Below, one piece after another: positions 2,770 to 60,154 of a stretch of 64,000 bases of DNA. Source of the stretch: a virus. Below the pieces are notes generated by a model. That model had not been told where the DNA came from. It was given only the letters and a program-made list of their open reading frames with translations, and searched no databases. Where the stretch lies: IMG/VR virus record IMGVR_UViG_3300045988_160394, positions 199,173-263,172 of that record; one strand, written 5' to 3'. Numbering within the stretch: the stretch's first letter is position 1; each line of letters begins with the position of its first letter. A program made the translations under genes and the position numbers.

Positions 2770-5700
2770 TTAAAAATTCCTATTTATATAATTCTCGATA
2801 TCTCTATCTGTTACTGGCTGATCTTTTTTATTTTTTATATTCATGTTTATATTAACAGCTCCACCTACTGTAGCTTCTGCTGCTTTTGCCATGATCTTCT
2901 CCATATACTTTCTACCTTTTTTAGTATCCGCCTTTATATTTATTATATAACCTTGTTGAGTATTCCCTGTCACATAACCGCTATCTTTTTCCATGAATTC
3001 AGGAATGCTCATAATTTGTTGTGATTTATTTTCTTTGCTAACTTCACTAGCTTGTTTATCATTTAAAGGATTACCAGAAGCATAGCCTCCAATCATTAAT
3101 CCAGCTGCTAAACCTAATACTGCTTTACCCATTCCTCCTACTCTTACATTTTTAACTCCATCAGCTAAAGATTCTGTCATACTTTCAGATAAACGTTTTA
3201 TTTCTGCGTCATATTGTCCAGAGTTCATTAGTTTGTTTTTTGCAATATTACTTTCTTGTTGAGCCATGCTTCTTTGAGCTATTTCATCTAAAGCATTTTG
3301 TAAGAAAGCAGGATCTCCATATCCCATTAAAGCTTGGTGTCTAGTTGCAAAAGTACTAGCTTCTTCAGCAGCTGCTCCAATAGAACCATTATACCAAAGT
3401 TTTTCAGTTCTTGCTCCATTTCTTCCAGTAGCTTCTATAGATGCTTTATAAGATAATGCTAGTTTGTCATGAGACATTTCTTTCATTCTTCCTAAGAATT
3501 TTTGTTTCATTGCATTAGCTCCACTTATCATAGGGTCAGCTTGTTTTTCTATATTAGCTCTTTCTTCTTTGCTTAATATAAGATGTCCCATATGTTCATA
3601 TGATTTCTTAAATATATCATCACCATAATCATCTAACCAACTGCCTAATTCATTTAATGATTCTGTAGATGCTACTGTTCCTTTATTATTAAAAATATCA
3701 TTCATTGCTTTTTTGAAGTTTTTAATTCTATTATCATCATATACTCCACCAGCTAATTTTTTAGAAGAGATTACTCCTTGTTCAGCTGTATCTAAAGCAT
3801 TCCAAACATAGTTATTAAAAGCTATTTCTTCAGGAGAAGTATTTCTAAATACATCAGCTAACTTAACAGCATTTAAAGCTTGGTTAACTGAACCTGTTGC
3901 AGCTAGTCCTGTTTTAGCCATCATTTCTTGTGCATACTTATCTACAGACATTCTTTTAATAGCTGTAGCTTCTAATTTACTAAACGTATCATCATCAACA
4001 TTACCTTTTATAACAGTTAAAGCTTCGTCTAGTATTTTGCCAGGCTCTGATGCTTTATTTAAATCTATATCAAATTTTTCATCTTTAGTTATGTCTTTAG
4101 CCAAACTTAATAAATTAGTTGTATCTTCACTTAGCTTATTAAACTCTTTTACAGTAGGCATATGAGCAACAGTTGTAAAAGTCTTTTTACCTAGAATAGA
4201 TTCTCCGCCTGGAACTAAAACCATGTTATCTGGATTAGATAAGTTTTGATTTTTTATAAAATCTTCTTTAATAGTTTTAGCTGCTTTATCTTGCCAATAT
4301 TTATTATCTGTAACAGCAACACTATACATAGCTCTTTCTTGTGCAGCAAAATAATCATATACTTCACCTGACATTAAATTGTTTTCTATTGCATAGTTTC
4401 TACCACCATTTTTATTAGCTAATTCATATAAAGCTCCATCTACTACTTTCCCATCTTTATCTCTATATTCAATTCTGAATGAAGATAAAGAGTCACCGTC
4501 TTGGTCGGCATTAGCTTTTAACATTGTAGATACAGATATCTTAGTTTGATTACCTTGTAATCTTTTATCTAAGAATACTCTAGTTTGGTTTATAGAATTA
4601 TTCCTTGTATTTGGATAACGGTCAGTTATATCAAAAGTACCATATTCTAATAAGAAATCATCCATTTCACTTTCTGTTTTAAATCCAAACTTCTTTAATG
4701 TTTCTGGTTTATAATATCCCATCTTTTCCATCTGTTCTTTTGATACGTATTTATAATCAAAATAAGCTTCACCATTAGCTTCTCATTCAGCTATTGTTTT
4801 ACCCATTATTTTAGATTTTTTAGTAAGATCATCTCCAACAGTTACATCTATACCTGCCTCTTTAGCTGCCTCTACTAACTCTTTAGTCGTAGTATCAGTT
4901 ATTAATCCAGATGATTTAAGTCTATAAGCAGTTGCATTTATTTCTATTTTACTAGCATTATGATGCATACCATTCTTACCAAATATAGAATCTCTTATAC
5001 CTTCTATAGCTTCTGTTCTATTTCCTAAAACTCTTTGGAATAGTCTTTCATATTCATCATCTTGTTTCCCAGATAAAGATTCTAATTCTTCTATACTATG
5101 TTTAAGCTTATTTAATTTTTGATGTCCTACATCTCTAACTTCCTCATCTGCTATTTTCATACCAGTACCAGGGACAGCTAGATATCTATTCTCCTGACCA
5201 AACTTTTCACCTAAATCTACAACTATGTTTCTTTCTACTAAATCATCAACTTTAAAGTTAACATCTTTGATATCAATAACTTCAAAGCCTTTTTGTTTCA
5301 TATCTTCTAAACTTAAGTTATATCCTCTATTAAAGCTATTAGCTTTCATAGCCATTTGTATTTTATATTCTTTTTCTGCACCTTCTACACCTAATTTAAT
5401 CTTATATTTTTTAGCGTATTCATGAATGTCTTTTAAATGAGCGTATCTTTCTGTTTTAACCATATTATCTGTTAGTAGTTCATCAGTGTATGGATTAAAG
5501 AATTGATCATCTTTAAATTGGTCTAATAAACCTTTTAATGATTTCTCTCCTATAATATCTTTAGAAAAAGTAACAGTACCATCAGCATTTTCTGTTAAAT
5601 GATCTTTGAAGGCATGTGAGCTTAACAATGTTTTAGTATCTAGTTCTCCATTATTAATCATTTTTTCAATTTGTTCTGCATGAGCTTCTGTCAAGGATAC

Positions 5701-8700
5701 CCTTTCTAATATAGATAATTCTTGGTCTCCAAACCTCATAGTTTTCATAGTGCCAGCTTTAGAATCTATATCTTCTAACATAGAATCTATTTTCATTATT
5801 TGTTGTTGAATAGCACTTTTCTCACTAGGGTCGGTAGACTTAATCATTTGCTTTTCTAGTCCTATTCTTTCTTTTTTTAATTCTTTTTTTGTTTTTAACA
5901 TTTCAAAGTATTCTGCTGTTACACCTGTTTGTGTTTCTGCATCTCTAACATATTTTACGTTCTCTCTAGTATTAGTACCTATAGCAACTTTAGCATCTTT
6001 TATAAACTTACCATCAACAGTTATATCTTTTTGTATAGTAGCATATGAACCAATAGCTTCTTTTTTGTATTCATATTTACCATCTTTATTCATAATATAA
6101 ATATCTTTAGCTACTAATCTATCATTTTCATCCATATCTTCTAATTCTTCATCTAAAGATTTTATTAATGCTGTAAACTTATCTTTATCTAATGATGTAG
6201 TTTTATTAACAGAATAAAATTTATCATCTATAAAGAATCTACCTTTCTTTTGTTTAACGCCTATAGATTCATAGCTTTTAGTGTCTTTATTTAAATCATA
6301 TTGTTCTATAAATTGAAATGCTTTATTAGAATTTATTTTATCTACAATAAAATCTACAGCATCTTTCTCTGAACCATATTTCTTACCTAAGCTGTTAATA
6401 GCTTTAGATAATAATCCTTCATACATTTGTCCTATATTACCGTGCTTAGCTACGGCATCATTAGCTAATAAATGAGTTTTATTTTTTAGTATCTTATCGA
6501 ATAATAATGCAGAATGCATATTTCTTTCTACAGTTATAGCTTTCTTTAAATCATCTAAAGATTCAAAACCTATTTTCTTAAGTGTACTTTCAGATAAATC
6601 TTTGTTTTTAAAGAATATAGCATCTACAGTTTCATTAGTAATTACTTTGTCTTTTACTATGTCCCAAGAATCTGTTTCTTTAAAAAATTGTTTTATCTTA
6701 TTGTTGTATGATCCAGTAGAAGCATAAACTATATCTGTCATACCTTTTTCTGCACCAGATGTCATTGTTTTAACATACCCCATAGCAGATATATCTTCTA
6801 TAGCATATTGTCCAGTAATACCTTCTTTAGATAGTATCTTCTCTAACTTAGCAGCCATTTCTGCTTGAGTAAGAGGTTGATTGTTTTTATCTAAAAATTT
6901 AGATAAGTTCTTTCTTATTATTTTATTTATATCTTCGTCTCTTAATTTAGTTCCATCACTTTCATAGAAGTTAAAATTGAAAACTCCATAATGCATTTTA
7001 GAAGCAAAGTCTACATTTCTTTCAGCAAAGCCTTTCCATTTAACAGCTGATTCACCTCTGCTTACTAATTTACCAGGAGAAGAATTGAATACTAATTCTC
7101 CATTTTTAAATTCAAAATTACCTCTATAGTTTAGTAATGCTTCTTGTTGTTTCTTTAAATCATTTCCTACTAATTCATTTAATAAAGCACTAACGTCATA
7201 ATTTTTACTAAGCTTCTGAGTACTAGCTGTTCTTAATCCATAAGCAGCTTCATGCACTCTTGAATCTATAATTCTCTCTTGCTCAAAAGTAGATATTGAA
7301 TTTCTTATATAGTTATAAGCTTTTTTCTCTATATCTTTTGTTTTTTCATCTACATTAGAATCTTTCATTACCTTAGCAAAGTTATTATCTATTAAAACTT
7401 GTAAAGCGTTGCTACTAACATATGTTGTATCCATCATTACATCCGTAGTTGTTTTACCTAATCCAAAATAATTTCTCATAGTTCTTTTATCCATAATATC
7501 AGAACTTAAAGTATTACCAGCAGTAATTCCTAGTTTGGATTTCTTTATATCATCTACTCTTAATTGTAGAGCATTACCAGACTGAGTTATAGGTGGTCTT
7601 TGAGAATTATCAAAGATAGAGAATGTAGAGTTTCCTGGTCTATATCCTCTTATTCCTATAAGTGCAGATGTTTTATTTTCTTGACCAGTAAAACCTAATT
7701 CTTTAGTTAAAAAAGCAAATTCATTAGATACGTTTTTGTCTTCTTTAATTTTATCTAATACAAAGTTAATATTCTTAATCAAATCTCTAGTCATTTCTGG
7801 ATTAATATCTTCTAATGCTTTCTCTTCTTTTACATAATATTTAAGATGTTGTTTCATATTATCTAAGAATTCTTTATCAGCAAAATCTATTCCATCTACT
7901 ATATGATTTAATTTTTGATTTTCTCCAAACAAATCTACTAATACATTTTTTATATCTGATATATCTACTCCATAGTTTGAATCTATATCGTTACCTCCAA
8001 AACCATTTATGGTAGATCTACTTCTTAATGAAGCATTATTTAAAGATACTAATCCTACTAATCTATCAAAACCTTCATCTTGGCCTTTCTTCTCTACTAC
8101 TCTTTGTACGTTATTACTTATACTATATCTATTAAGATTATCTAAAGATGAAGCAGAACCTCCTTTTACTTTTCTACCGTCAGCTTTGAAAGTTAACTTA
8201 TTATTTACTTGTATTTTCATAGAACCTAATTCTAAATACATAGTCTCAGAAGGATCATTGTATTTTATTTTAGGCATAATTAATTCCTCTGATCTACCAT
8301 TTTTAAATAATAATAAAGAACCATCTTCTTGTACAGATATAGATGCTCCAAGTTTATCGGCAGTATGAACTACATCTTTTACATAAGTATTTAAATCTTT
8401 ATATAAGTTGTCATACAATATCTGTTTAGTCCTATCACCTTTTTTTATTACATTTCTATTAGGTATATAATACTTTTCAACTAAACTTTTAGCATATCTT
8501 TCAGCAGATTTCTTAGTACCATCTAGAACATTTATATTTGTTCTTTCAACTATATTATTTGCTATTTGTTGAATTATTGGTTTCATATTTTCACTATTTA
8601 AGTATCTAACAAATTCAGTATTACCTTCTAATGCTTTCATAAATGTTCTGCTACCATTTAATATTCCATTTGTAACATTAGACTCTTTAGCTTCTCTCAT

Positions 8701-11610
8701 TCCTTCAATTATAGCTTCTGCTATTTGATACGGATGATAATCTTTATCTTTAAAGCTATTTTTTGAACTAAACTTAAATTGTTTCTTTATATTTTTAAAA
8801 GCCTTTGTATCTTTTAAAACCTCATCTTCTTGTAACATAGCAAATAGTTTTTCAACTGCATCTTTTTCGTAAATTAAATTACCTTTTTTATCTTTACCAT
8901 GAACAGCCTCTGTAGCTGTTTTTATTATTGAGTAAGGGCTATTAACATCATTAAGATTAATCTTTAATATGTTTGCTGTATCTAATGATTTAGCAGTATC
9001 TATATAATTAATTCTTTTTCCTCTAATTATCTTATCGTATTTTATTTCATATAGATTTTTAAAAGTATTAAAATCTGTTTGTAAATTAACGTCGCCTAAT
9101 TTAATCATATCGGCAATATCATCATTACCGCCTCTAAATTTGTTATTAAATATTCATTCAGCAGTCGTTCCTTTTACTTCTTTAACTGTTCTATTAAATA
9201 ATTCTTGTTTAACACTTTCAGCCGTTTTAGGATCTTTAAATACTTCAGTAGCTTCTAAAGCTTCTATTATATTTTTAAACATATTACCATAGCTATTAAC
9301 CATTTCTAATCCTGTAGCATTATTATCAACAGTTGATTGTAATAATCTCATTACATCATTTTTACTATGTCCTAAAGTAGCTATAATCATTTCTTGTGAT
9401 TTTATTAATTGAGCATTACTAAGTTCCATAGCCATTTGCCCTTTAGAAACTCTTTCTGCCATGATAAGAGATATATCTCTACCTGTAATATCCATGTTCA
9501 ATTCTTTAGATAAGTTTTCTTGTAGATCAAGTACATTCTTTATTTTCTTATAAGAATTATCTCTAAACATAGAGTTGTCTGCTCTAGAAATTAATTTCTT
9601 TTCATTATCAGCTAATACAACTCTATTAAATAACTCAGTATCAGAAAGACCTTCTTCATTAACTGGTTTAAAGACAACTTTATTAGTTTCTTTATTTTTG
9701 TTAATTTCTCTAATATCAAATCTGTCTTTCATTCCTTTTTTGATTTGAATTCCATTATCTGTTCTTTCTGCAACAATATCAAAGTTACCGCTTAAAAAAG
9801 CATTCATCTCTTTTTCTGATTTAAATATTAGATTTTGTGTTAAATCTCCTAGTCTTGTTGTAGTTGCGTAATCATCATGTACTGCCATGTTTAATTGAAC
9901 TTGATAAAGTTTTTTACCAGAATATTCAGGGGCTATATCTCCCATCATTGTTCTCAATTCATCTGTTAGTTCTATTTCTCTTATATTAGATATATCGTAA
10001 AAAGAACCTTTATTAATTCCGAAACCTGCACTAAAGTTTTCATGCATAGCTCCACCAGCTGCTTGTAAGGCTTCATCTCCTTTACCTAGTAAATGATTAT
10101 CAGCTGTATATATAGTTCCTGTACTTTTACTTTGTGCAAAGTTGAAATAATTTCTTCCACCATAACTAGTACTAACTCCTTTTTTAGCTTGAAGTATTTG
10201 CTTACCAGGAGTTAATACTGTATCTTCTGTTTTTATATTTTCTATTAAATTGTTTATGTGCTCTATAACAGATACATTCCCTGGAAGACTTTCTGATTTC
10301 TTTGTAAAAAACCATGATAATCCAGTAACGTCATCTTCAGCCATATGAGGTTTTAGTCCTTCACTATTAAACAAACCTCCATAATGTTTTTGTAATAAGT
10401 ATTCCTGTCCTCTTACTTTATCTATATCTCCTATTTTTGCATTTCCATATACAGAAGATAATGAATTATAATCTGTTGCTAATTTAACTCCACCTAAAAC
10501 ATCTAGATCTGCATAAGATGGAATATTAAAGCCAACTCTTTTACTTTCGAAATAATTATTTAATTTTCCATTATAATCGTTATTCCATTTTAATAACATA
10601 TTATTTAAAATAAGTTCGTCAAACGCATTACTGTTAAAACCAGAAATCATTGCTTTTTTATTATTAACAGCTGTTTGAGCTTTACTTATAGTTTGTGTAA
10701 CTTTTAATATATCTGCTTTTATTCCATCAATTTCTCCTGTTTGATGATAAACATTATTTAAAACTTCTGCTCCTTTTTCTATAACTGAAATATCTTTATA
10801 GTTATTTCTATCTACATTAGGGAAATTAGTTGCTTTAAAATATTTTTCTCCTTTAACTTTTTCATATTTAAAATCTTTATCTGCATATTTAGCTAAACGC
10901 ATAGCTGTTACTTTTAATTCTTCGTCACTATCTATAGTTCCATTTTCTATAGCCTTTCTTATTTTATTTACAGTTTCTTCTTTTTCTTTATCTGACATTC
11001 CTATAAGTACACTTACATTATCTATTACCTTACCTGTTTTAACGTCATATTCTTGCATAGCAAATTCTGTAATAGCATTAGGTCTTCATATATTATTTTT
11101 ATCTTTTCCTCCAAGAGTTTCTAAGTCCCAAACAAAAAGACTTCCTCCATTACTTTTTAGAGAGTTAAAATATTTATAAGATTCTTTTCATGAATTGATA
11201 GATTCATTAGCAGAACCTCTTTGTTTACTATGAACAACATTACCTAAATTCTTTATTGTTAATCCTAACATATTCTCTGATGAATTAGATTTATCACCTA
11301 TTATTTCAAAGAAGTTTAATCCTTTATCTCCGATGTTGGTTAATTGTCTAAGCTTTTCTGTTATTACATCTATATCGCCAGTAGCAACTTTTTTATTTCA
11401 TGTATACTTATGCTTATTAATAAACATATGGTCAGAATCTTTTATTAAATACTTACCACTATGTAATAATTCTATTGTTCTATTTATTTCTTCTATAGCC
11501 GCATTTTCTTTATTTATATCTACTTTTTTTGAAGCTTCAATGTTACGTTGAGCTATACGGATTCTATCCATAGTAGTTCCAACTATATTAGTTGATTTAT
11601 TATTAGCCAT
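2770..11610 (-). CDS. Giant 2946-aa protein: N-terminal DEDDh (DnaQ-like) exonuclease motifs plus RNA polymerase beta-like and beta-prime-like (NADxDGD) motifs; candidate virion-packaged RNA polymerase
   Basis: Track ORFs 11398..11610, 9154..11058, 4783..9108 and 2770..4731 lie in one frame. They are separated only by TGA at 11398, 11188, 11086, 9154 and 4783; the gaps were scanned and hold no TAA/TAG. ATG 11608-11610 lies behind GAGGTGG; TAA at 2770. Motifs: LFVWDLETLGG, NSNAFDELIL, KPHMAEDDV (Exo I-III, ca 10320-11130); AKHGNIGQMYE (ca 6430-6447); DRYPNTRNNSI...KANADQDGDS (NADQDGD = 4492-4512). Confidence 0.75.
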
Positions 11611-51744: not shown

Positions 51745-52908
51745 ATGAAAAAGATAGCAATAGAAATAATGGAAAGACAATTACAAGAAAGAAAGGAAGC
51801 TGCAACTAGTATTATAAACAACACAATAGAAGCATTAAAAGTATTAGGACAAGAAGAGTTATTATCTTCAAATGTAGTAGAAGTAGAGAAAGAAAAAATA
51901 GTAGAAGTTAAAGTTCCAGTTGAAGTAGATAAGAGTGAATTAGAAGCTTTAAAAGTAAAAAATGCAGAAGCTGAAGCTATTATCAAATCATTAAAGAAAG
52001 AATTAGCTAATGAAAAGAGAAAGGCTACTAACAGTAACAAGAGAGTAGATAAATTAAAAGAACAAGTTTCTGAATTAAAATCAGATGTTAAAGGTTTATC
52101 TAAGATAGCTGATAAAAATAAAGAGCTTGTAGAAGAGAATAAATACTTAAAAGATATGATTACAAAATTAGAAGCTAAATTAAACATGAAAACAAATGCT
52201 GAATTTAAAGTACCAGTGAAGAATAAAGAAACAGTTAAGAAGCAAACTCCTGTTCAAATTAATAGCGATTTGAAAATTTATTCAAACAATAACATAAGTA
52301 TATTAGCTCAATATAAAAATGTTATATTTGAAGCTTCTAAAAGAATGGATGCAATAACCATATATGATCCAAGTATGTACGGTATGAAAGAAGAAATAAA
52401 AGCTGCACTAGAATCAGCTAAATTATTTACTCAAGCTAGAGATGTAAAAGACCATGACAGAATAGAAACTGAAATAGGTTCATGTCATGCTATATCTAAG
52501 ACTAAGTATATGGGATTCGTTATGGATAACGGTAAAGCTATTTGTTATGTATACGAACCAAGTAAATATGATACAGCTAAAGCTATTTTAATAAACAAAA
52601 GATTAAATAACACTAGTATTAAATATGAACCAGCTACAGAATCTCAACAAGCTCTTATTAACAATTTAGTAGCTCAACATGTAGCTGCTAATAATAAGAG
52701 AATGGAGCAACTTTCTCAAGATGCATATACTGGTTTAGGGTTAGATTTCTTAGATGGAAATAATAATCAACAAACAGTTAGTAATAGTGCTCCTAGTGTT
52801 AGCTTAAACTTTACAAAACAACCTGAACAAACTGCACCTTCAACTAATAGTCCTGAAGAGGATATGATGGCTGAATTTGCTAGAATGTTAGATGGTTTAA
52901 ATGCATAA
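51745..52908 (+). CDS. Hypothetical protein (387 aa) with N-terminal coiled coil
   Basis: Intact ORF with RBS GAGGT. Heptad-rich residues 1-150. TAA stop. Confidence 0.65.
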   Translation: MKKIAIEIMERQLQERKEAATSIINNTIEALKVLGQEELLSSNVVEVEKEKIVEVKVPVEVDKSELEALKVKNAEAEAIIKSLKKELANEKRKATNSNKRVDKLKEQVSELKSDVKGLSKIADKNKELVEENKYLKDMITKLEAKLNMKTNAEFKVPVKNKETVKKQTPVQINSDLKIYSNNNISILAQYKNVIFEASKRMDAITIYDPSMYGMKEEIKAALESAKLFTQARDVKDHDRIETEIGSCHAISKTKYMGFVMDNGKAICYVYEPSKYDTAKAILINKRLNNTSIKYEPATESQQALINNLVAQHVAANNKRMEQLSQDAYTGLGLDFLDGNNNQQTVSNSAPSVSLNFTKQPEQTAPSTNSPEEDMMAEFARMLDGLNA

Positions 52909-53205
52909 GCGTTACCTTTCCCCTGCGGGGGTAGTTTCTCACGTTAAGCCCTACGGGTTTGAGTTAAAAGTAACTACCTTCGGTTATCGAGAAATTAGAA
53001 ATATTTCTTTCTATGACAAGTTAGCTCCGCTTCGCTACGCTAACTGTTAGAAAGAAGAAAACTCGCTTCGCTCGTAAGAAATAGAGCGTTTTGTGAGTAT
53101 TCGTGAGAAGAGTGCTTCTCTTTGGTGGGTAAAACCACCAACGGTTGTACTTAGCTCTACGAGTGCCATAAGAAATCATAAAAGAAATAGTACTTCTTTT
53201 TGATT
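52909..53205 (+). ncRNA. Unclassified GC-rich structured RNA island (about 300 nt, at least 6 hairpins, several UNCG tetraloops)
   Basis: Noncoding in all frames and far more GC-rich than its flanks. Hairpins and helices read directly:
- CCCC-UGCG-GGGG;
- GGUAGUU...AACUACC enclosing CUCA[..AAGCCC-UAC-GGGUUU..]UGAG;
- C-UUCG-G;
- a 16-bp bipartite helix UUCUUUCUA..AGUUAGC-(13 nt)-GCUAACU..UAGAAAGAA (53005-53056);
- CGCUC-(10 nt)-GAGCG;
- GAGAAG-AGUG-CUUCUC;
- GGUGG-GUAAAA-CCACC.
The stable loops are UNCG only on the plus strand. Confidence 0.6.
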
Positions 53206-53247
53206 ATAAACTAAATCAATTATATTAAATTAAAGGAGGTATTCACA

Positions 53248-53730
53248 ATGAATACAAATACAACTATCAAGAAAAGAATATTTACTATGGCTATGAGAGG
53301 CAACACTGCTATCTTAACAGACAGTAGTAATCCTCAATCTACTATCTCATTTAAAGGAGAAAACTTATCTATTATTGGCTTACAACTATTAAATAAGCTA
53401 TTAGAAAGTATGCCAACTCAAAGATTAAACTATAAAGTAGCAGTATTATTACCACATACTGTAGTTATTCCTACATTCGAAAATACTAGAAATGCATGGA
53501 TTGCTAATGGTAAAACTAAGACTGGTAATGATATAGAACCTGCTAAGCTTCATGAAGTTATTAGACTTAATGAGCTATTAAGAGTTAAAGGTCATAACGT
53601 AGAAATCTTTGACCAAAGCAAACTAACTAGTGTAATGTATAAATCATTTACTAGAAAGACATGGGAGCTTATGGATAAGATAGTACCAAAAGCAGAGGCA
53701 GAAGATTGCAATGCATTTATGGTTCAATAA
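53248..53730 (+). CDS. Hypothetical early protein (160 aa), distant paralog of 55406..56248
   Basis: Intact ORF with RBS AAAGGAGG. Shared block ANGKTKTGNDIEPAKLHEVIRLNELL vs RTGKTKSGTQLTGQEMQAFKDVYKMI. Confidence 0.6.
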   Translation: MNTNTTIKKRIFTMAMRGNTAILTDSSNPQSTISFKGENLSIIGLQLLNKLLESMPTQRLNYKVAVLLPHTVVIPTFENTRNAWIANGKTKTGNDIEPAKLHEVIRLNELLRVKGHNVEIFDQSKLTSVMYKSFTRKTWELMDKIVPKAEAEDCNAFMVQ

Positions 53731-53760
53731 TATTATTATGAGTCAGTGAAATATCTGGCT

Positions 53761-53821
53761 CTTTCTGTCGTGGAAGATACAGTCCACCTGATGATGGCTA
53801 TTAGGTAGCCGAAACAGAAAT
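53761..53821 (+). ncRNA. Hammerhead ribozyme, type III (open stem III)
   Basis: Layout: UUUCUGU-C^ (stem III 5' strand, GUC triplet, cleavage after C53769); GUGGA-AGAUACAG-UCCAC (stem I); CUGAUGA; extra U; GGCUA-UUAGG-UAGCC (stem II); GAAA; CAGAAA (stem III 3' strand). All invariant core nucleotides are present. Confidence 0.85.
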
Positions 53822-53846
53822 ATTATTACATTATGAGGTGATTGAT

Positions 53847-54269
53847 ATGAAAATATTTATACCAGCTTACGAAGGAATATCTGGATTATATACTGTAGAA
53901 GAAATAAGAGAAGGAGAAAACTTCTATTATGATAATGGATCTATGGTAAACATATATGACAACTATTTTATTGTTATCAATAACAATGGAATAATCGAGT
54001 ACGAAAGTGATGAAGGATTATACAGCATATTTGTTATGTGTTCTGATGAAGAAATAAAATTCTTAGAACAATTTACAGATATAGGATCTAAAAAGATTTT
54101 AGAGAGAATGTTAGAGCGTAGAATGTATTACGCTAATCTTAAAAAATCTGTAGATGGTAAAACATGTCCTGTATGTGGAAAGAAACTATCCGAATCTAAT
54201 ATAGATGCTGGAATAAGAAATCTATTCTGCAATAATTGTAAGCATAGTGAAACTATTTGCATAGATTAG
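53847..54269 (+). CDS. Hypothetical early protein (140 aa) with C-terminal zinc ribbon
   Basis: ATG lies after GAGGTGATTGAT. Motif CPVCGKKL...FCNNCKH. The G of the TAG stop is the first nt of the next ribozyme. Confidence 0.6.
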   Translation: MKIFIPAYEGISGLYTVEEIREGENFYYDNGSMVNIYDNYFIVINNNGIIEYESDEGLYSIFVMCSDEEIKFLEQFTDIGSKKILERMLERRMYYANLKKSVDGKTCPVCGKKLSESNIDAGIRNLFCNNCKHSETICID

Positions 54270-54329
54270 TCGAAACGGTAGAAATACCGTCGTACAGGGA
54301 TGGCTTCCTGTGCCTGATGATGACAAGCC
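54269..54329 (+). ncRNA. Hammerhead ribozyme, type II (open stem II) with loop I pseudoknot
   Basis: Layout: GUC-GAAA; ACGGUA-GAAA-UACCGU (stem III with GNRA loop); C^ (cleavage after C54291); GUACAGG-GAUGGCUU-CCUGUGC (stem I); CUGAUGA; extra U; GAC (pairs with the 5' GUC); AAGCC, which is complementary to GGCUU in loop I. Confidence 0.8.
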
Positions 54330-54363
54330 AAACTATATTTGAATTTAAAGGAGATTGATTGAT

Positions 54364-54921
54364 ATGAAAACAAAATTCACATTAAAAGGATTAGAAATAG
54401 GAAACATTAAGATAGGAGATATCGTTGTTGAAGGCGAATACTTTGTTAAAGAGGCATGGGGTATGAAAAACCTAATTAAAGGAACAGTTGAAGATTTGTT
54501 ACACAACATGCCAAAATATCTTGATCAAGTATCTACAATAAACAACAAGTACGAAGAACTATCTAGAAAAGAATTCTTAAAGAAAGTAGACCATATTCGT
54601 ACTAGAATTAATGGAGCTAAAACTATAGAAGAATTAGATAGTATCTGTAAATGCTATTACGAAATATGTCCATTTAGTATGCATAGTGAAATAGATGCTC
54701 TTCATAACCAAAGATATCATGAGTTAAGAAGATATTCTGATGATGAAATTAAAGAGCTAAAAAAAGAAATAGAGTCTTCAGGTACAATTACAGGTATTGC
54801 AAGACTTATCAATATTGTTAAGAGTGAAGTTATTCCTGATAAATATAGAGACGAATTGTTAGCTATGGTTGACAGGAAACACTCAGAAATATTATTTAAA
54901 TATACAACAAGTATGAATTAG
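54364..54921 (+). CDS. Hypothetical early protein (185 aa)
   Basis: ATG lies after AAAGGAGATTGATTGAT. The TAG stop overlaps the start of the next ribozyme. Confidence 0.6.
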   Translation: MKTKFTLKGLEIGNIKIGDIVVEGEYFVKEAWGMKNLIKGTVEDLLHNMPKYLDQVSTINNKYEELSRKEFLKKVDHIRTRINGAKTIEELDSICKCYYEICPFSMHSEIDALHNQRYHELRRYSDDEIKELKKEIESSGTITGIARLINIVKSEVIPDKYRDELLAMVDRKHSEILFKYTTSMN

Positions 54922-54986
54922 TCGAAACGGTATAGAAATATGCCGTCGTGTAGAGATAGCCTACTACACCTGATGATGACAGGCTA
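54921..54986 (+). ncRNA. Hammerhead ribozyme, type II with loop I pseudoknot (second copy)
   Basis: Layout: GUC-GAAA; ACGGUAUA-GAAA-UAUGCCGU (stem III, 2 bp longer than copy 1); C^ (cleavage after C54947); GUGUAG-AGAUAGCCUA-CUACAC (stem I); CUGAUGA; extra U; GAC; AGGCUA, which is complementary to UAGCCU in loop I. Stems I and III and the pseudoknot all covary relative to 54269..54329. Confidence 0.8.
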
Positions 54987-55019
54987 AATAATATTTTAAT
55001 TTAAAGGAGATTGATTAAT

Positions 55020-55280
55020 ATGACAAATTGGAAAATTACAAAAATAACAACAGGAGTAGCAACTGAAGAAGAGGTAAAAGGATGGGAAGAAATAGAAAAT
55101 GATGACATCTGTCCTGTATGTGGATCAAAAATGATTGATGATGAAGAAGAACAATTATTACAACATACTGAATGTCCTATATGTGGTTACTTTGAAAACA
55201 TCTACGGTAATGCTATAGATTTCTATGGTAAAGAATGTTTCGAAGAAAAGAAAAAAGAAATAGGTCTTTTAAATGAATAA
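55020..55280 (+). CDS. Hypothetical early zinc-ribbon protein (86 aa)
   Basis: ATG lies after AAAGGAGATTGATTAAT. Motif CPVCGSKM...ECPICGY. TAA stop. Confidence 0.6.
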   Translation: MTNWKITKITTGVATEEEVKGWEEIENDDICPVCGSKMIDDEEEQLLQHTECPICGYFENIYGNAIDFYGKECFEEKKKEIGLLNE

Positions 55281-55297
55281 TTAGGGAGTTCTCTCCC

Positions 55298-55356
55298 TTC
55301 TTCTAATGTAGCCAATGACGGTCACAAGCCCGTATAAGAAATACAGAGTGGAAGAA
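55298..55356 (+). ncRNA. Twister ribozyme (P1-type arrangement)
   Basis: Sequence: UUCUUC U^AA UGUA GCCAAUG ACGG UCACAAGC CCGU AUAAGAAA UACA GA GUG GAAGAA. Pairings: P1 UUCUUC/GAAGAA, P2 UGUA/UACA, P4 ACGG/CCGU, pseudoknot CAC/GUG. Conserved blocks UAA, GCCAAUG, UC.CAAGC and AUAA match the rice twister as I remember it (..CUAACACUGCCAAUGCCGGUCCCAAGCCCGGAUAAAAGUGGAGGGGG..), with compensatory changes in every helix. Predicted cleavage between U55304 and A55305. Preceded by hairpin AGGGAG-UUCU-CUCCCU. Confidence 0.85.
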
Positions 55357-55405
55357 AATAATATTATGGGTTAAGCTTCCCTAAAAAGCATAGGAGGAAA
55401 CAATT

Positions 55406-56248
55406 ATGAAAAATGTAGTATTAGTATTCAAAGGAAATCACGCTTTAGCATTAGACAATGCTGGAACAGTTATTAAGAAGACTTCAACTGGTAGCTTTTT
55501 AGCTAACTTAGAAACTTTAGCAGAAGTTCTTAACACTATCCCTGTAGGAGATGTAGCTCCAGAAGTTACAACTATTCATATCCCTGACTTTATTCAAGGT
55601 ATAGCTTCAGGTACAGCTTTAGATTATATTAGAACTGGTAAGACTAAATCTGGTACACAATTAACTGGTCAAGAAATGCAAGCTTTTAAAGATGTGTATA
55701 AGATGATAGCAGAAAGAATCTATAACGTTAGATTAAGCTTAGCTAAGTTCATACCAAAGACTAATACAGAGTTAATAGCTTTAAGAACAAACGCTTATAA
55801 TGCTTTAACTAATTATGTTGCAAGTACTGGTGGAATGGTAATGGGAGGAATGGCTCCAGCTTCACAAGTAATTGACCCTGATAAAGCTTTAAGAGAAGCA
55901 TTAGATGCTCAAATCATAGAAGCTATTAATAAGGGAGATATGGATAAGATAATGCAATTAAAAGCTATGAGAGATACATTAAAGCAACCAACTATGGTTC
56001 AAGGTACTGCTCCTGTAGCTCAACCAACTAATAGTTATGTGCCTACACCAAACTTTGGAATGGAAAGCACTACAGCTCCAACAGAAAATAATACTGCTGT
56101 TGCACAAGATAGTAATAACCAACCAATAGCTACACCTGAAGAAACTCAACAACAAGCTCAAGCTCCAGTAGAAAATGCAGGTACTGATGTTAGTTTCACT
56201 AATACAACTACAACTGATGCAAGTAACATCAACTGGGCTAATGTTTAA
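55406..56248 (+). CDS. Hypothetical early protein (280 aa), Q/T/P/A-rich C-terminal half
   Basis: Intact ORF with RBS AGGAGG and TAA stop. Confidence 0.65.
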   Translation: MKNVVLVFKGNHALALDNAGTVIKKTSTGSFLANLETLAEVLNTIPVGDVAPEVTTIHIPDFIQGIASGTALDYIRTGKTKSGTQLTGQEMQAFKDVYKMIAERIYNVRLSLAKFIPKTNTELIALRTNAYNALTNYVASTGGMVMGGMAPASQVIDPDKALREALDAQIIEAINKGDMDKIMQLKAMRDTLKQPTMVQGTAPVAQPTNSYVPTPNFGMESTTAPTENNTAVAQDSNNQPIATPEETQQQAQAPVENAGTDVSFTNTTTTDASNINWANV

Positions 56249-56261
56249 TTAATAGCTAATA

Positions 56262-56294
56262 AAGCCTCTATTAATATAGGGGCTTCTTTATATT
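56262..56294 (+). terminator. Rho-independent-type terminator
   Basis: AAGCCUCU-(8 nt)-AGGGGCUU followed by CUUUAUAUU. Confidence 0.55.
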
Positions 56295-56335
56295 ATCAAA
56301 AATAAAATTATAAGAAGAAAAAGGAGACGATTGAA

Positions 56336-57097
56336 ATGAAAATTATAAAAGGATCACAAAAAATGTTAGAGGAATTACAAGCAAACTTATTTAATATGTT
56401 ATCAGAAGAAGGACATGAATTAAACGGAAGTGAAGCAGACGGATATGCATTAAAGATAGACGAGGAAGTATTTAATGATAACCAAAGAAGAATAATTGAA
56501 GTAGCTATGAAAGCTAGAATAAACGCAGGAGTATTAGATCCATCAGCTTATACAATAGATGAAGAATTAGTTAAGAATAGTTTCTCATTAATAGCTGACT
56601 CTCAAGAAAAGATGGAAATAATCCAAACAGATATATTAAGAGGAGCTAAGATACCAGAAGAAAATATAGTAATATTATTACAACCATGGGCTCCAGAAAT
56701 GTATAGTACATTCTCATACTTAGTAATAGCATTTGGTTTAAGTAACGATCAAATGAAGGCAGTACAATTATCAGCTAAAGCAGCTAAGACTGGATTAAAG
56801 ATAACACAAGCTACTAAGAAAGCAGCTATGATAGCAGGTTCTACTGGTAATGTTGTAAACAGAGTAGGTAGAGAAGTAACTTTAGCTGGTGTTGAAATAG
56901 GAGCTACTATTGGTGCAGGTATGGTTAAGACTGGTATAGAAGCAGCTGCATGTGCTGTTAATATAGGCATTAGAGATCTTAATCCTAGAGAGTTAGCTAA
57001 AGGAGAAAATGTACAAAGATTAGGTAAAACAATTAAAAGTTTATTTAAGAAGAACGGTGAATCACAACAAATAACTAATGGATTTGCTGCTCTATAG
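56336..57097 (+). CDS. Hypothetical protein (253 aa) with Gly/Ala-rich hydrophobic C-terminal region
   Basis: Intact ORF with RBS AAAGGAG and TAG stop. Confidence 0.65.
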   Translation: MKIIKGSQKMLEELQANLFNMLSEEGHELNGSEADGYALKIDEEVFNDNQRRIIEVAMKARINAGVLDPSAYTIDEELVKNSFSLIADSQEKMEIIQTDILRGAKIPEENIVILLQPWAPEMYSTFSYLVIAFGLSNDQMKAVQLSAKAAKTGLKITQATKKAAMIAGSTGNVVNRVGREVTLAGVEIGATIGAGMVKTGIEAAACAVNIGIRDLNPRELAKGENVQRLGKTIKSLFKKNGESQQITNGFAAL

Positions 57098-57105
57098 TTT
57101 ACATA

Positions 57106-57131
57106 AGAGAGTCTATATGGCTCTCTTTTTA
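57106..57131 (+). terminator. Rho-independent terminator
   Basis: AGAGAGUC-UAUAU-GGCUCUCU followed by UUUUU. Confidence 0.65.
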
Positions 57132-57161
57132 TTATTATTAATATAAGGGAGATTGATTGAT

Positions 57162-57308
57162 ATGGATAGAATAATTAATAGCAGATTAACGCTTATAAAG
57201 AAAATAGATAAGGCATGGGATGATAAACGTGACTTATATGGAGTTAAATATGATGTAGATAAAGGTTATATCGCCTATAGAAATGCAATAATGAATCTAT
57301 TATATTAG
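57162..57308 (+). CDS. Small hypothetical protein (48 aa)
   Basis: Below the track cutoff. ATG lies after AAGGGAGATTGATTGAT, the same initiation module as the ribozyme-flanked genes. TAG stop. Confidence 0.45.
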   Translation: MDRIINSRLTLIKKIDKAWDDKRDLYGVKYDVDKGYIAYRNAIMNLLY

Positions 57309-57515
57309 GTGATATATGTGATTAATATAGATATAAAATCTAAGAATAGAAAAGAATTAATTAAAGCATATAAAAGAGCTTTACATATGATAAAAGAGTA
57401 TGAATATGGTCTTAATAGCTTAACAGCTAAAGAAATAGATACAATAAATGATATAAAGAAACAAATAAGAGATGAAATAGCTATAAAAGATTGTATAAAT
57501 AAAGGTGCTTATTAA
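57309..57515 (+). CDS. Small hypothetical protein (68 aa)
   Basis: Track ORF with a GTG start abutting the previous stop (TAGGTG). TAA stop. Confidence 0.4.
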   Translation: MIYVINIDIKSKNRKELIKAYKRALHMIKEYEYGLNSLTAKEIDTINDIKKQIRDEIAIKDCINKGAY

Positions 57516-57561
57516 TAGAATTGTTATTTGAAAATTATATATTTGAGAGGAGATTAATAAT

Positions 57562-57720
57562 ATGAGTAAAGAAGCATTACAATTAGTTAATAGAATAGCA
57601 GGATTAAAGGATGATTTTGTTATAGACAAGATAATATGTGCAGCAATAGAACAAGGTTTAGATGTTAGTCCTGAAGCTGGTATAGAAGAAGATATGGATG
57701 AGATAGTATTAGAGTTATAG
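57562..57720 (+). CDS. Small hypothetical acidic protein (52 aa)
   Basis: Below the track cutoff. ATG lies after GAGAGGAGATTAATAAT. TAG stop. Confidence 0.45.
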   Translation: MSKEALQLVNRIAGLKDDFVIDKIICAAIEQGLDVSPEAGIEEDMDEIVLEL

Positions 57721-58075
57721 AGTATATATAAGGGAGGGGCGTAAGCCCCGACCGATTTAAAAAGTATTTATATCTACGAGCTAATATATATATTGCGAGC
57801 GTCAGCGAGCAACCATATAACATTATATATTATTACTCAGAAATAGAAATATCTTTTAGAAATATAACTATTTTTGCTTATATTTTTATCTACTTATTGT
57901 GATATGAAGTTTATTACAACTAAACTTTTACGAAAAAAGTGTTTAACTTTTACGTACTTTTGTTTGGTATTACTAAACTTTTACCCTTTTTCTGCTTTTT
58001 TAGTTACCCTCGTTTTAAATAATATTATTGAAATTTATTATTTTGTCGAGGAGGAACTACCCCCGCCCGTATGTT
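57721..58075 (+). other. Noncoding region: two GC-rich structured ends flanking an AT-rich core with direct repeats
   Basis: Left end: GGGGC-GUAA-GCCCC (GNRA hairpin) and GCGAGC-GUCA-GCGAGC. Right end: UAGUUACCCUCG-(34 nt)-CGAGGAGGAACUA hairpin, then CCCCCGCCCG. Track ORF 57874..58077 has no RBS and is low-complexity. Confidence 0.5.
57919..57985 (+). repeat. Three direct repeats (A/G)(C/T)T(A/T)AACTTTTAC(G/C) in the AT-rich noncoding core
   Basis: ACTAAACTTTTACG (57919-57932), GTTTAACTTTTACG (57941-57954) and ACTAAACTTTTACC (57972-57985), spaced 22 and 31 nt start to start. Confidence 0.6.
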
Positions 58076-58271
58076 AAAGTCATATATGGAAATAAGGATG
58101 AAAGTTCCGTTTTGAAGAAATGAGCTATATCAAGGGATAAGAAGGCACTTTTCAGCATAAATACTATAAAAACCGCTATTTTAGGTATAAATGTCTAATA
58201 AGTAAATAAAACAAAAACAAATATAATTACATACGTATATCTATGTATATACACATAAGGAGGTAAATAAA

Positions 58272-58877: not shown

Positions 58878-58901
58878 GAGTTCGAGTCTTTAAGGCTAAA
58901 C

Positions 58902-58918
58902 AATAGGAGCCAATTTAA
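58902..58918 (+). promoter_or_regulatory. Motif AATAGGAGCCAATTTAA (copy 1), 40 nt upstream of the next start codon
   Basis: A 17-mer repeated at 60080-60096 with one R difference. It is not the RBS; the real RBS GAAGGAGAG follows downstream. Confidence 0.35.
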
Positions 58919-58957
58919 TATAAGTATAGACAATAAAGAGAAGGAGAGAAAAAAGAA

Positions 58958-60054: not shown

Positions 60055-60079
60055 TTAGCTCGTTTCTTTATGTTTAAAA

Positions 60080-60096
60080 AATAGGAGCCGATTTAA
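60080..60096 (+). promoter_or_regulatory. Motif AATAGGAGCCGATTTAA (copy 2), 59 nt upstream of the next start codon; degenerate third copy at 60103-60119
   Basis: Matches 58902-58918 at 16 of 17 positions. AATAGGAGTGTATTAAA follows 7 nt later. Confidence 0.35.
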
Positions 60097-60154
60097 ATGA
60101 TGAATAGGAGTGTATTAAATATAAAAAACAAGTAAAAGAGAGGTTTAAATTGTA

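What the first reader, a model, noticed from the sequence alone, without database searches (positions are those of the whole stretch)
54269..54986. Two type II hammerheads with covarying stems and a covarying loop I pseudoknot
The two copies are 652 nt apart. Both are circularly permuted relative to the first hammerhead, in the order: GUC-GAAA, stem III hairpin capped by GAAA, C^, stem I hairpin, CUGAUGA-U-GAC.

Stem II is only the 3-bp GUC/GAC clamp. The 5-6 nt immediately 3' of it are complementary to loop I (AAGCC with GGCUU in copy 1; AGGCUA with UAGCCU in copy 2).

Stem I (GUACAGG/CCUGUGC vs GUGUAG/CUACAC), stem III (6 vs 8 bp) and the pseudoknot all differ between the copies, yet each stays paired. 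This is internal covariation support. Pseudoknotted type II hammerheads are known from bacterial and phage sequences.

The G of each upstream TAG stop codon is the first ribozyme nucleotide, so the ORF end and the ribozyme are fused.
Basis: partly seen in the sequence, partly recalled or inferred. Interest (0 to 1): 0.75.

Follow-up and report, generated by a model that had tools for sequence, protein, structure and literature searches.

The report
Two phage type II hammerhead ribozymes
Two short self-cutting RNAs (type II hammerhead ribozymes held together by a pseudoknot) sit between small genes of an uncultured giant phage; they are real but belong to a class described in 2011, and most likely cut one long phage message into single-gene pieces.

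Summary
Both elements (54269-54330 and 54921-54986, + strand) have the full hammerhead core, type II topology, a 3-bp stem II, one extra U after A9, and a 6-bp loop I/3'-tail pseudoknot. No such motif appeared in 300 shuffles of the window.

Eight copies from related phage contigs are paired in 100% of cells, with 9 compensatory pairs, 2 of them in the pseudoknot. The same architecture occurs in at least 119 IMG/VR viral contigs, with strong covariation.

Rfam Hammerhead_II detects copy 1 only under relaxed filters (40.4 bits, cut-off 37) and misses copy 2. A model built from unrelated viral examples scores both at about 70 bits.

Pseudoknotted, short-stem-II type II hammerheads clustered between phage genes were described and tested by mutation by Perreault et al. 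2011. These are therefore new members of a known kind.

Four consecutive intergenic gaps carry a type III hammerhead, the two type II hammerheads and a twister. There is no terminator between them, and the arrangement is conserved in related roughly 200-260 kb phage contigs.

The most likely role is co-transcriptional cutting of a polycistronic mRNA into single-gene messages with hairpin-capped ends. That role is inferred, not shown.

The parts
54269..54330 (+). Type II hammerhead, copy 1. Stem II is GUC 54269-71 with GAC 54322-24. Stem III hairpin is 54275-90. C17 is 54291 (predicted cleavage 54291/54292). Stem I hairpin is 54292-54313. Core CUGAUGA is 54314-20, extra U is 54321. Pseudoknot is 54301-06 with 54325-30.
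   Evidence: Sequence. Rfam RF02276: 40.4 bits against a cut-off of 37, E 1.2e-6, with relaxed filters only. Custom model R1: 70.1 bits. The minimum-free-energy fold gives the three-way junction, z -2.3. Nearly identical copies occur in L128 and L129.
54921..54986 (+). Type II hammerhead, copy 2. Stem II is GUC 54921-23 with GAC 54978-80. Stem III hairpin is 54927-46. C17 is 54947 (predicted cleavage 54947/54948). Stem I hairpin is 54948-69. Core is 54970-76, extra U is 54977. Pseudoknot is 54957-62 with 54981-86.
   Evidence: Sequence. No Rfam hit even at E<=10. R1: 69.5 bits, E 7.5e-18. Fold z -2.9. Syntenic copies in L120, L121, L125, L128 and L129 carry compensatory changes.
53762..53820 (+). 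Stem III is 53762-68 with 53814-20. C17 is 53769. Stem I hairpin is 53770-87. Core is 53788-94, extra U is 53795. Stem II hairpin is 53796-53810.
   Evidence: Descriptor scan and fold. Conserved after the 160-aa gene in L120, L121, L125, L126 and L127. Four base pairs, spread over all three stems, show compensatory changes. No Rfam hit.
55300..55354 (+). Twister ribozyme, type P1, lacking the optional P3 hairpin. Predicted cleavage is at U55304/A55305.
   Evidence: Rfam RF03160: 49.1 bits (below the cut-off of 67.2), E 3.2e-9. Conserved in L121, L125 and L127, with one compensatory P1 pair in L125. The cleavage site is placed from my memory of the O. sativa twister, not tested here.
53740..53761 (+). 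Hairpin immediately 5' of the type III hammerhead. It would become the 3'-terminal hairpin of the upstream cleavage product.
   Evidence: Terminator-like scan. It is kept in L121 with a different stem sequence (GGGGUUGGU/ACUGACCCC) and no U-run after it.
55283..55298 (+). Hairpin AGGGAG-UUCU-CUCCCU immediately 5' of the twister.
   Evidence: The stem is kept and the loop varies in L121 and L125. There is no compensatory change, so support is weak.
54331..54366 (+). Conserved spacer, Shine-Dalgarno sequence (AAGGAG 54348-53) and ATG 54364 after copy 1. The twin module after copy 2 is 54987-55022.
   Evidence: The largest direct repeat of the region is 87 nt at 80% identity, 54284-54370 versus 54940-55026.
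53847..54269 (+). ORF of 140 aa with a C-terminal zinc ribbon and unknown function. Its TAG stop shares its G with copy 1.
54364..54921 (+). ORF of 185 aa with unknown function, flanked by the two type II hammerheads. The predicted processed RNA is 54292-54947, 656 nt.
   Evidence: homologues P0001-P0008.
55020..55280 (+). ORF of 86 aa (zinc ribbon), between copy 2 and the twister.
56262..56285 (+). Intrinsic-terminator-like hairpin ending the unit after ORF 55406-56248. The only other + strand terminator-like hit between 53248 and here is 53740-61, which abuts the type III hammerhead.

Best explanation
Both elements are catalytically competent type II hammerhead self-cleaving ribozymes.

Folding and cleavage. 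As RNA polymerase transcribes the + strand gene block, the stem III hairpin and then the stem I hairpin form. When CUGAUGA-U-GAC and the tail emerge, the 3-bp stem II closes. The 6 nt that follow pair with loop I. This pseudoknot holds stems I and II side by side and sets up the core for attack of the C17 2'-OH on the next phosphate. Cleavage (54291/54292 and 54947/54948) leaves a 2',3'-cyclic phosphate on the upstream piece and a 5'-OH on the downstream piece. After the cut only 3 bp of stem II join the two pieces, so they should separate and not religate.

Effect on the transcript. Together with the type III hammerhead (53769/53770) and the twister (55304/55305), this cuts one polycistronic transcript into single-gene RNAs of about 522, 656, 357 and 985 nt.
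- Each upstream product ends in a hairpin. For type II this is stem III. For the type III hammerhead and the twister it is an extra hairpin just upstream.
- Each downstream product starts with a 5'-OH structured end followed by a standard spacer and ribosome-binding site.
- Each cistron would thus be insulated from its neighbours in stability and translation.

Status of each step. Shown: the sequence, the fold, covariation, conservation, and the absence of terminators between the ribozymes. Inferred: cleavage itself, co-transcription, and the stabilising or insulating effect.
For: Core and topology:
- All core nucleotides are present.
- The motif appeared in 0 of 300 shuffles.
- The minimum-free-energy folds give the expected junctions.
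- Copy 1 passes the Rfam cut-off.
- Both copies score about 70 bits against a model built from 48 other viral examples.

Covariation:
- In the 48 IMG/VR copies, 88% of cells are paired against 25-43% for slid controls. The covariation score is 0.61 against at most 0.12. Five of 6 pseudoknot pairs show double changes.
- In the 8 copies from this phage lineage, 100% of 177 cells are paired. Nine pairs show double changes, 2 of them in the pseudoknot.

Pseudoknot statistics: 61% of 90 long-loop copies have a helix of at least 5 bp, against 21% with permuted tails.

Extra U after A9: this is a known tolerated position. In CChMVd, a U there raised the cleavage rate 3-4 fold (De la Pena and Flores 2001, as summarised in PMC3705267).

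Precedent: the pseudoknot requirement, very short stem II and clusters flanking single genes in prophages were shown experimentally by Perreault et al. 2011 (PMC3088659).

Operon context:
- The + strand terminator-like sites are 51656-82, 52918-31, 53740-61 (which abuts the type III hammerhead), 56262-85 and 57105-27. There is none between 53762 and 56262.
- The ribozymes fill four consecutive intergenic gaps.
- The arrangement is conserved in L120-L129.

Family-wide placement: in the IMG/VR examples the ribozyme sits between a stop codon 0-5 nt upstream and a ribosome-binding site that starts 5-20 nt after stem II.
Against: - No cleavage data exist for these sequences.
- Copy 2 and the type III hammerhead are not recognised by Rfam.
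- The high R1 scores are partly by construction. The training sequences were collected with a 22-nt pattern taken from the window copies.
- The type II hammerhead after the 186-aa gene is absent in L126 and L127. Copy 1 has no counterpart in L120, L121 or L125. The elements are therefore dispensable.
- Promoter scans are uninformative in this AT-rich DNA, so co-transcription is assumed, not shown.
- The stabilising or insulating effect rests on general knowledge of bacterial mRNA decay, not on data from this system.
Confidence: 0.75

Rival explanations
1. The ribozymes are active, but cleavage is conditional on translation. The stop codon of the upstream ORF overlaps the first ribozyme base. 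A terminating ribosome would therefore cover stem II and part of stem III and unfold the ribozyme, so the cut would report on, or be timed by, translation of the upstream gene.
For: The stop codon ends at offset 0 or +1 in 43 of 94 viral examples, and within -5 to +1 in 83 of 94. All 10 copies in this lineage share the G of a TAG stop.
Against: Genome compaction alone explains the tight spacing, because the downstream ribosome-binding site is equally close. Hammerheads with a pseudoknot cleave at more than 1 per minute (PMC3088659). That is probably faster than ribosome arrival only if translation lags behind transcription, which is unknown here.
Confidence: 0.12
2. The hammerhead-plus-RBS modules are mainly selfish or hitch-hiking junction sequences of a gene-cassette island. 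They persist because they travel with small accessory genes and provide homology for recombination. RNA cleavage would have little benefit for the phage.
For: Between the conserved 160-aa and roughly 255-280-aa genes, gene content differs in every relative, and type II hammerheads come and go with the genes. In L129 the copy-1-like ribozyme follows a different gene. L120 lacks ORF89 and the twister, and its junction lies in the AAATAATATT stretch that follows both copy 2 and the twister in the window. The two modules form an 87-nt repeat at 80% identity.
Against: Compensatory substitutions in stems I and III and in the pseudoknot, with an invariant core, show selection on the RNA fold rather than on DNA identity alone.
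Confidence: 0.08
3. The pair of type II hammerheads excises the 656-nt ORF188 RNA with 5'-OH and 2',3'-cyclic phosphate ends. A host RtcB-type ligase, or the ribozyme itself, then circularises it, as happens with retrozymes.
For: Two same-strand hammerheads flank one gene, and the end chemistry they produce is what RtcB ligases use (general knowledge).
Against: Perreault et al. looked for spliced or circular products from clustered bacterial hammerheads and found none (PMC3088659). In relatives the same gene is flanked by a type III hammerhead on one side or by no ribozyme at all (L120, L126, L127). A 3-bp stem II gives no scaffold for bringing the ends together.
Confidence: 0.03
4. The elements are not ribozymes. 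They would be ordinary intergenic hairpins (terminators, RNase III sites or protein-binding sites) that resemble a hammerhead by chance.
For: Copy 2 has no Rfam hit. The stem III hairpins carry GAAA tetraloops like many other hairpins nearby.
Against: All 11 invariant core nucleotides are in the right places in both copies. The motif appeared in 0 of 300 shuffles. The core is invariant while the stems covary. No U-run follows the hairpins.
Confidence: 0.02

Closest known systems
Type II hammerhead ribozymes with a loop I / 3'-tail pseudoknot (Perreault et al. 2011, PLoS Comput Biol, PMC3088659; Rfam RF02276 Hammerhead_II)
   Same: Open stem II of 1-3 bp, with stems I and III closed by loops. 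The consensus core is present. A pseudoknot of 4 or more bp forms between loop I and the nucleotides directly 3' of stem II. The elements lie in intergenic positions among phage or prophage genes, often several in a row flanking single genes.
   Different: Copy 2 has a 6-bp stem I with a 10-nt loop, an 8-bp stem III and an extra U after A9, and is not found by the Rfam model. Copy 1 fits that model only with a 2-nt insertion at stem II. These differences lie within the variation seen in at least 119 IMG/VR contigs.
Clustered hammerheads of Clostridium scindens, Azorhizobium caulinodans and Agrobacterium tumefaciens prophage regions (Perreault et al. 2011)
   Same: Several hammerheads of mixed types sit in consecutive intergenic gaps of one transcription unit. 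The proposed role is processing into single-gene mRNAs. Self-cleavage in vivo was shown for the A. tumefaciens trio.
   Different: Here the cluster also contains a twister. It lies in a roughly 200-260 kb uncultured phage lineage, and it brackets a hypervariable set of small genes.
CChMVd (+) hammerhead with an extra nucleotide between A9 and G10.1 (De la Pena and Flores 2001, summarised in PMC3705267)
   Same: One extra nucleotide at exactly this position. A U there is compatible with catalysis and even improves it.
   Different: That is a viroid type III hammerhead with loop-loop contacts. Here the extra U occurs in all three hammerheads of the locus, and the same CTGATGA-T-GAC pattern was found in at least 119 viral contigs. 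The variant without the U is about equally common.
Twister and hammerhead co-occurrence near phage-type genes (Roth et al. 2014, from memory; review PMC6765202)
   Same: Self-cleaving ribozymes of different classes lie close together in bacterial or phage DNA, and their function is still described as 'largely elusive'.
   Different: Nothing fundamental. This locus is one more example, but it comes with syntenic relatives that show gain and loss of individual ribozymes.
Synthetic ribozyme insulators such as RiboJ (Lou et al. 2012, from memory)
   Same: A hammerhead placed just upstream of a ribosome-binding site cuts off the variable upstream RNA and leaves a defined, hairpin-started 5' UTR.
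   Different: RiboJ is engineered from a type III satellite-RNA hammerhead. A natural insulating role here is only inferred.

Membership tests
Hammerhead ribozyme, type II (RF02276) | Conserved core: C3-U4-G5-A6-N7-G8-A9, G12-A13-A14, the A15.1-U16.1 pair, and a non-G at position 17 | tested here: met
   Both copies have CUGAUGA, GAA, an A-U closing pair and C17 within a GUC triplet. The only deviation is one extra U between A9 and G10.1, a position known to tolerate U.
Hammerhead ribozyme, type II (RF02276) | Three-way junction in which stems I and III are hairpins and stem II is open (5' and 3' ends in stem II) | tested here: met
   Descriptor scan. Minimum-free-energy folds. Pair counts are 100% in 8 lineage copies and 88% in 48 viral copies.
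Hammerhead ribozyme, type II (RF02276) | Tertiary contact holding stems I and II parallel: a pseudoknot of 4 or more bp between loop I and the 3' tail | tested here: met
   A 6-bp helix forms in both copies, in the same register, starting at nt 10 of the 3' product. There are two compensatory pairs between the copies. The helix arises in 0.6% and 0.07% of loop/tail shuffles.
Hammerhead ribozyme, type II (RF02276) | Score at or above the Rfam gathering cut-off (37 bits) | tested here: inconclusive
   Copy 1 scores 40.4 bits, but only with relaxed filters. The default gathering run finds nothing. Copy 2 gives no hit at E<=10. Both score about 70 bits against custom model R1.
Hammerhead ribozyme, type II (RF02276) | Site-specific self-cleavage giving 2',3'-cyclic phosphate and 5'-OH ends | not testable with these tools
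   This needs in vitro transcription or end mapping.
Hammerhead ribozyme, type III (RF00008) | Core plus an open stem III, with stems I and II as hairpins (element 53762-53820) | tested here: met
   No Rfam hit at E<=10, so membership rests on the descriptor and on covariation in 3 distinct sequences.
Twister ribozyme, type P1 (RF03160) | Conserved twister nucleotides with P1, P2 and P4, and a score at or above 67.2 bits | tested here: inconclusive
   49.1 bits, E 3.2e-9. The full-length alignment lacks only the optional P3 hairpin. The sequence is conserved in three relatives. The two twister pseudoknots were not checked.

The most novel reading that the evidence does not exclude
The ribozyme-plus-RBS units act as natural 'insulator cassettes' for a fast-evolving island of small accessory genes. 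Each newly acquired gene would arrive with, or land next to, a type II hammerhead. The hammerhead cuts the gene free from whatever lies upstream and gives it a standard 5' leader. The near-identical module DNA would provide the homology for swapping cassettes between phages. The stop-codon overlap might additionally let a terminating ribosome gate the cut.
Probability: 0.15. Interest if true: 0.6.

Novelty: new member of a known kind. Interest (0 to 1): 0.3.

Why it matters
The biological role of hammerhead and twister ribozymes in bacteria and phages is still called 'largely elusive' (PMC6765202).

This locus adds no new ribozyme class, but it is a compact natural test case:
- It has three ribozyme architectures in four consecutive gaps of one operon.
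- Close relatives have lost or gained single ribozymes, so they act as natural knock-outs.
- An extra hairpin sits exactly where the ribozyme architecture does not itself leave a 3'-terminal hairpin.

It also shows that default Rfam annotation misses all four ribozymes here. Phage hammerheads are therefore probably under-counted.

Tried and rejected
- The Rfam gathering scan of the whole window gave nothing. This was a filter effect, not absence.
- Rfam at E<=10 on copy 2 and on the type III hammerhead gave no hit. I used descriptors and a custom model instead.
- blastn of 52000-58000 against GenBank phages gave no match.
- The search for related loci with ORF280 and with the tail sheath in IMG/VR, and with P0007 in GTDB genomes, found no relatives. 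The host therefore remains unknown.
- Pfam, PHROGs and PDB searches of the flanking proteins gave nothing above threshold, so gene function gives no clue.
- The promoter scan found no more sites than shuffled sequence does.
- I considered that the extra U after A9 marks a new variant. I rejected this because both the U and no-U forms saturate the IMG/VR scan, and the position is known to accept a U.
- I considered that the pseudoknots of the two copies are strand-swapped helices. I rejected this because they share one register and differ by two compensatory pairs.
- I considered that 53740-61 is a true terminator. This is unlikely, because the hairpin is kept in L121 without the U-run.
Full report
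**What is there**

Each element reads, from 5' to 3':
- GUC, GAA, then the stem III hairpin that starts with A15.1 and has a GAAA loop, ending in U16.1
- C17
- the stem I hairpin
- CUGAUGA, one extra U, and GAC
- a 6-nt tail complementary to loop I

In both copies the first G is the last base of the TAG stop of the upstream ORF (54267-69 and 54919-21). Predicted cleavage is after C54291 and C54947. It also carries the extra U after A9.

**Is it more than chance?**

- A strict type II descriptor finds exactly these two sites on the + strand and none on the minus strand. The descriptor requires a 3-bp Watson-Crick stem II, GAAA, a stem III of at least 5 bp closing with A-U, a non-G at position 17, a stem I of at least 5 bp, and CUGANGA with 0-1 inserted nucleotide.
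- It finds 0 sites in 300 dinucleotide-preserving shuffles of the 64-kb window, both strands.
- The window is only 24-34% G+C, so GC-rich three-way junctions are not expected by chance.
- ViennaRNA minimum-free-energy folds of the isolated elements give the hammerhead junction, with z-scores of -2.3 and -2.9.
- A 6-bp loop/tail helix arises in 0.6% (copy 1) and 0.07% (copy 2) of loop/tail shuffles.

**Database recognition**

- Rfam at gathering thresholds reports nothing in the window.
- With relaxed filters, copy 1 matches Hammerhead_II (RF02276) end to end at 40.4 bits, above the family cut-off of 37.
- Copy 2 is not reported even at E<=10 on a 111-nt slice.
- The likely reason is that the Rfam consensus has a long stem I with a 3-nt loop. 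Copy 1 can mimic this (9 bp in the minimum-free-energy fold). Copy 2 has a 6-bp stem and a 10-nt loop.

**The wider family**

Up to 6 copies occur per contig.

Parsing gave 122 well-formed unique copies:
- Ninety have a loop I of 5-13 nt. In 61% of these, at least 5 contiguous base pairs form between loop I and the 8 nt after stem II. The figure is 21% when tails are permuted among sequences and 8% when tails are shuffled. There are 52 different helix sequences.
- The other 32 have a 3-nt loop I and no pseudoknot.

I aligned 48 of the long-loop copies, none from the window, as alignment A1. Results on A1:
- 88.3% of cells are paired, against 25-43% when partners are slid by 1-3 columns.
- The covariation score is 0.61, against at most 0.12 for the controls.
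- 5 of 7 stem III pairs, 6 of 7 stem I pairs and 5 of 6 pseudoknot pairs show changes on both sides.

A covariance model built from A1 (R1) scores the window copies at 70.1 and 69.5 bits and finds nothing else in the window.

Two caveats apply. The 22 fixed bases of the search pattern came from the window copies, so part of that score is by construction. For the same reason stem II and the core are invariant in A1 and carry no information.

**The extra U**

The variant without the U (CTGATGAGAC) also saturates the scan. The U is therefore one common form, not a novelty. An extra nucleotide at this exact position is known from the CChMVd (+) hammerhead, where a U raised the cleavage rate 3-4 fold (De la Pena and Flores 2001, as summarised in PMC3705267).

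**Close relatives**

The 185-aa protein between the two copies has 8 homologues in the large protein collection. Their contigs are syntenic with the window. They include Logan assemblies of 264 kb and 196 kb and an NCBI contig, RCNI01001843.1.

- All relatives that cover the site carry the type III hammerhead after the 160-aa gene. Compensatory changes occur in stems I, II and III.
- Most carry a copy-2-like type II hammerhead after the 185-195-aa gene. L120 has CUGAAGA, which is allowed because position 7 is free.
- L121, L125 and L127 carry the twister.
- L128 has three type II hammerheads in 1.1 kb.
- L129 has the copy-1-like ribozyme after a different upstream gene.
- L126 and L127 lack the type II hammerhead after the 186-aa gene.
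- L120 lacks ORF89 and the twister. Its junction lies in the AAATAATATT stretch that follows both copy 2 and the twister in the window.

Eight distinct type II copies from this lineage are paired in 100% of 177 cells. Nine pairs show double changes: 4 in stem III, 3 in stem I and 2 in the pseudoknot. Slid controls give 0-2 such pairs. The pseudoknot starts at nucleotide 10 of the 3' product, both here and in the IMG/VR set.

**Context**

The window is from a tailed phage: tail sheath and portal hits were found. The sheath is 28-31% identical to those of Moorella phage MTATph1 and Bacillus phage 0305phi8-36, which are jumbo myoviruses of Firmicutes.

The + strand block from about 45.5 kb onward holds small genes of unknown function. 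Four consecutive intergenic gaps hold, in order:
- the type III hammerhead (53762-53820)
- type II copy 1
- type II copy 2
- a type P1 twister (55300-55354; RF03160, 49.1 bits, E 3e-9, lacking the optional P3)

Terminator-like hairpins on this strand lie at 51656-82, 52918-31, 56262-85 and 57105-27. The only other one, 53740-61, abuts the type III hammerhead, and L121 keeps that hairpin without a U-run. The genes from 53248 to 56248 are therefore most simply one transcription unit, punctuated by four ribozymes.

**How it most likely works**

Established hammerhead chemistry gives a cut 3' of C17, leaving 2',3'-cyclic phosphate and 5'-OH ends. Perreault et al. showed by mutation and rescue that the pseudoknot is needed for fast cleavage at low Mg2+. 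They also showed that lengthening stem II is harmful (PMC3088659).

My inferences are these:
- After the cut, the two products are joined only by the 3-bp stem II, so release should be fast and effectively irreversible.
- The predicted products are 53770-54291 (522 nt), 54292-54947 (656 nt), 54948-55304 (357 nt) and 55305 to about 56290.
- In the type II architecture the upstream product ends 22-26 nt after its stop codon, in the stem III hairpin.
- In the type III hammerhead and the P1 twister the upstream product would end in a single strand. In exactly those two places a separate hairpin sits immediately upstream (53740-61 and 55283-98).
- All downstream products begin with a structured 5'-OH end. 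A conserved spacer follows, then AAGGAG, and an ATG 10 nt after it.
- This pattern fits the making of single-gene mRNAs with protected ends and a uniform leader.

It is the role proposed, but never proven, for clustered prophage hammerheads. Type II hammerheads of Desulfovibrio vulgaris have been shown to cleave in vivo (PMC8782182).

**Comparison with what is known, and novelty**

The extra U is also known.

The stop-codon fusion is a family-wide habit. In 83 of the 94 examples with a long upstream ORF, the stop ends within -5 to +1 of the ribozyme, and 20 share the G of TAG. It is most simply explained by compaction, because the ribosome-binding site follows equally closely.

These are therefore new members of a known kind. 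What is mildly new:
- the conserved four-ribozyme arrangement bracketing a variable set of small genes
- the natural presence/absence variants among relatives
- the extra-hairpin pattern
- the failure of default Rfam annotation at all four sites

**Other things seen**

The late-gene block on the minus strand looks TGA-recoded. This does not change the reading of the ribozyme region, where stops are TAA or TAG. It does mean that ORFs listed under table 11 in the minus block are probably fragments.

A conserved 340-nt non-coding stretch upstream of the 160-aa gene remains unexplained.

Noticed in passing
window 1-45600, minus strand: The late/structural genes look TGA-recoded (code 4-like).
- 23 of about 50 long stop-free segments end in TGA. 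17 of those 23 continue directly, in the same frame, into another long segment. The same holds for only 2 of the TAA-ended segments and 0 of 5 TAG-ended ones.
- TGG-encoded Trp is only 0.33% of codons. The 1456-codon stop-free segment 4783-9153 has 2 Trp.
- Reading TGA as sense merges 9154-11085, 4783-9153 and 2770-4782 into 2950 codons.
- The + strand block that holds the ribozymes avoids TGA both as a stop and in frame.
- No tRNA gene lies in the window.
Stop-codon recoding in phages is a known kind of thing (Ivanova 2014 and Borges 2022, from memory).
   Followed up: partly
window 55300-55354 (+): A type P1 twister ribozyme lacking P3 lies between ORF 55020-55280 and ORF 55406-56248. Rfam gives 49.1 bits (below its cut-off), E 3e-9. 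It is conserved in L121, L125 and L127, with one compensatory P1 pair in L125. It is absent, together with the upstream gene, in L120.
   Followed up: yes
window 53762-53820 (+): A type III hammerhead with the same extra U after A9. It is not found by Rfam at E<=10. It is conserved in all syntenic relatives, with 4 compensatory pairs.
   Followed up: yes
window 53740-53761 and 55283-55298 (+): Extra hairpins sit immediately 5' of the type III hammerhead and of the twister. These are the two architectures whose upstream cleavage product has no hairpin of its own. The first hairpin is kept in L121 with a different stem sequence.
   Followed up: partly
window 52909-53247 (+); L120 4066-4400, L121 3566-3954, L125 4060-4400: A conserved 340-nt ORF-free stretch upstream of the 160-aa gene holds several GC-rich hairpins.
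- One hairpin (GUUAGC/GCUAAC, covarying to CUUGC/GCAAG in L121) has an invariant 13-nt loop, UCCGCUUCGCUAC.
- There is an invariant block CTCTACGAGTGCCATA (continuing as AGAAAT in the window), unique in the window.
- Many hairpins are capped by (A)GAAA(U).
No Rfam hit was found. It could be a promoter or regulatory region, or an unknown RNA next to a ribozyme cluster.
   Followed up: partly
IMG/VR loci L001-L119: Type II hammerheads of this pattern almost always start at or within 5 nt of the stop codon of a long upstream ORF (83 of 94). A Shine-Dalgarno-like motif starts 5-20 nt after stem II in 81 of 122 copies.
   Followed up: partly
IMG/VR loci such as L026, L031, L043, L046, L066, L073: A subclass of 32 of 122 copies has a 7-bp stem I, a 3-nt loop I (GAU, UAG or UAU) and a CAACCAA-like tail, with no possible pseudoknot. 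It often occurs in arrays of 3-6 copies per contig. Its tertiary contact, if any, is unknown.
   Followed up: no
L120 5562-5676; L126 5550-5575; L128; L129: The stretch between the 160-aa and the roughly 255-280-aa genes is a hypervariable island of small, often zinc-ribbon, genes. Type II hammerheads are gained and lost with the genes. The L120 deletion junction lies in the AAATAATATT stretch that follows both copy 2 and the twister in the window.
   Followed up: partly
window 57720-58270: A 550-nt ORF-poor stretch has isolated GC-rich segments (57730-57760 GGGAGGGGCGTAAGCCCCGACCG; 58040-58075). It has no tRNA and no Rfam match.
   Followed up: no
window 58879-58929 and 60057-60107 (+): A 51-nt intergenic direct repeat at 75% identity contains a hairpin-like GGCU...AGGAGCC around a Shine-Dalgarno sequence.
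   Followed up: no
window 53248-53730 and 55406-56248: The 160-aa and 280-aa proteins that border the ribozyme island share a weak N-terminal similarity: 22% identity over 116 residues, pairwise E 0.004. They may be distant paralogues. No family or structure match was found.
   Followed up: partly
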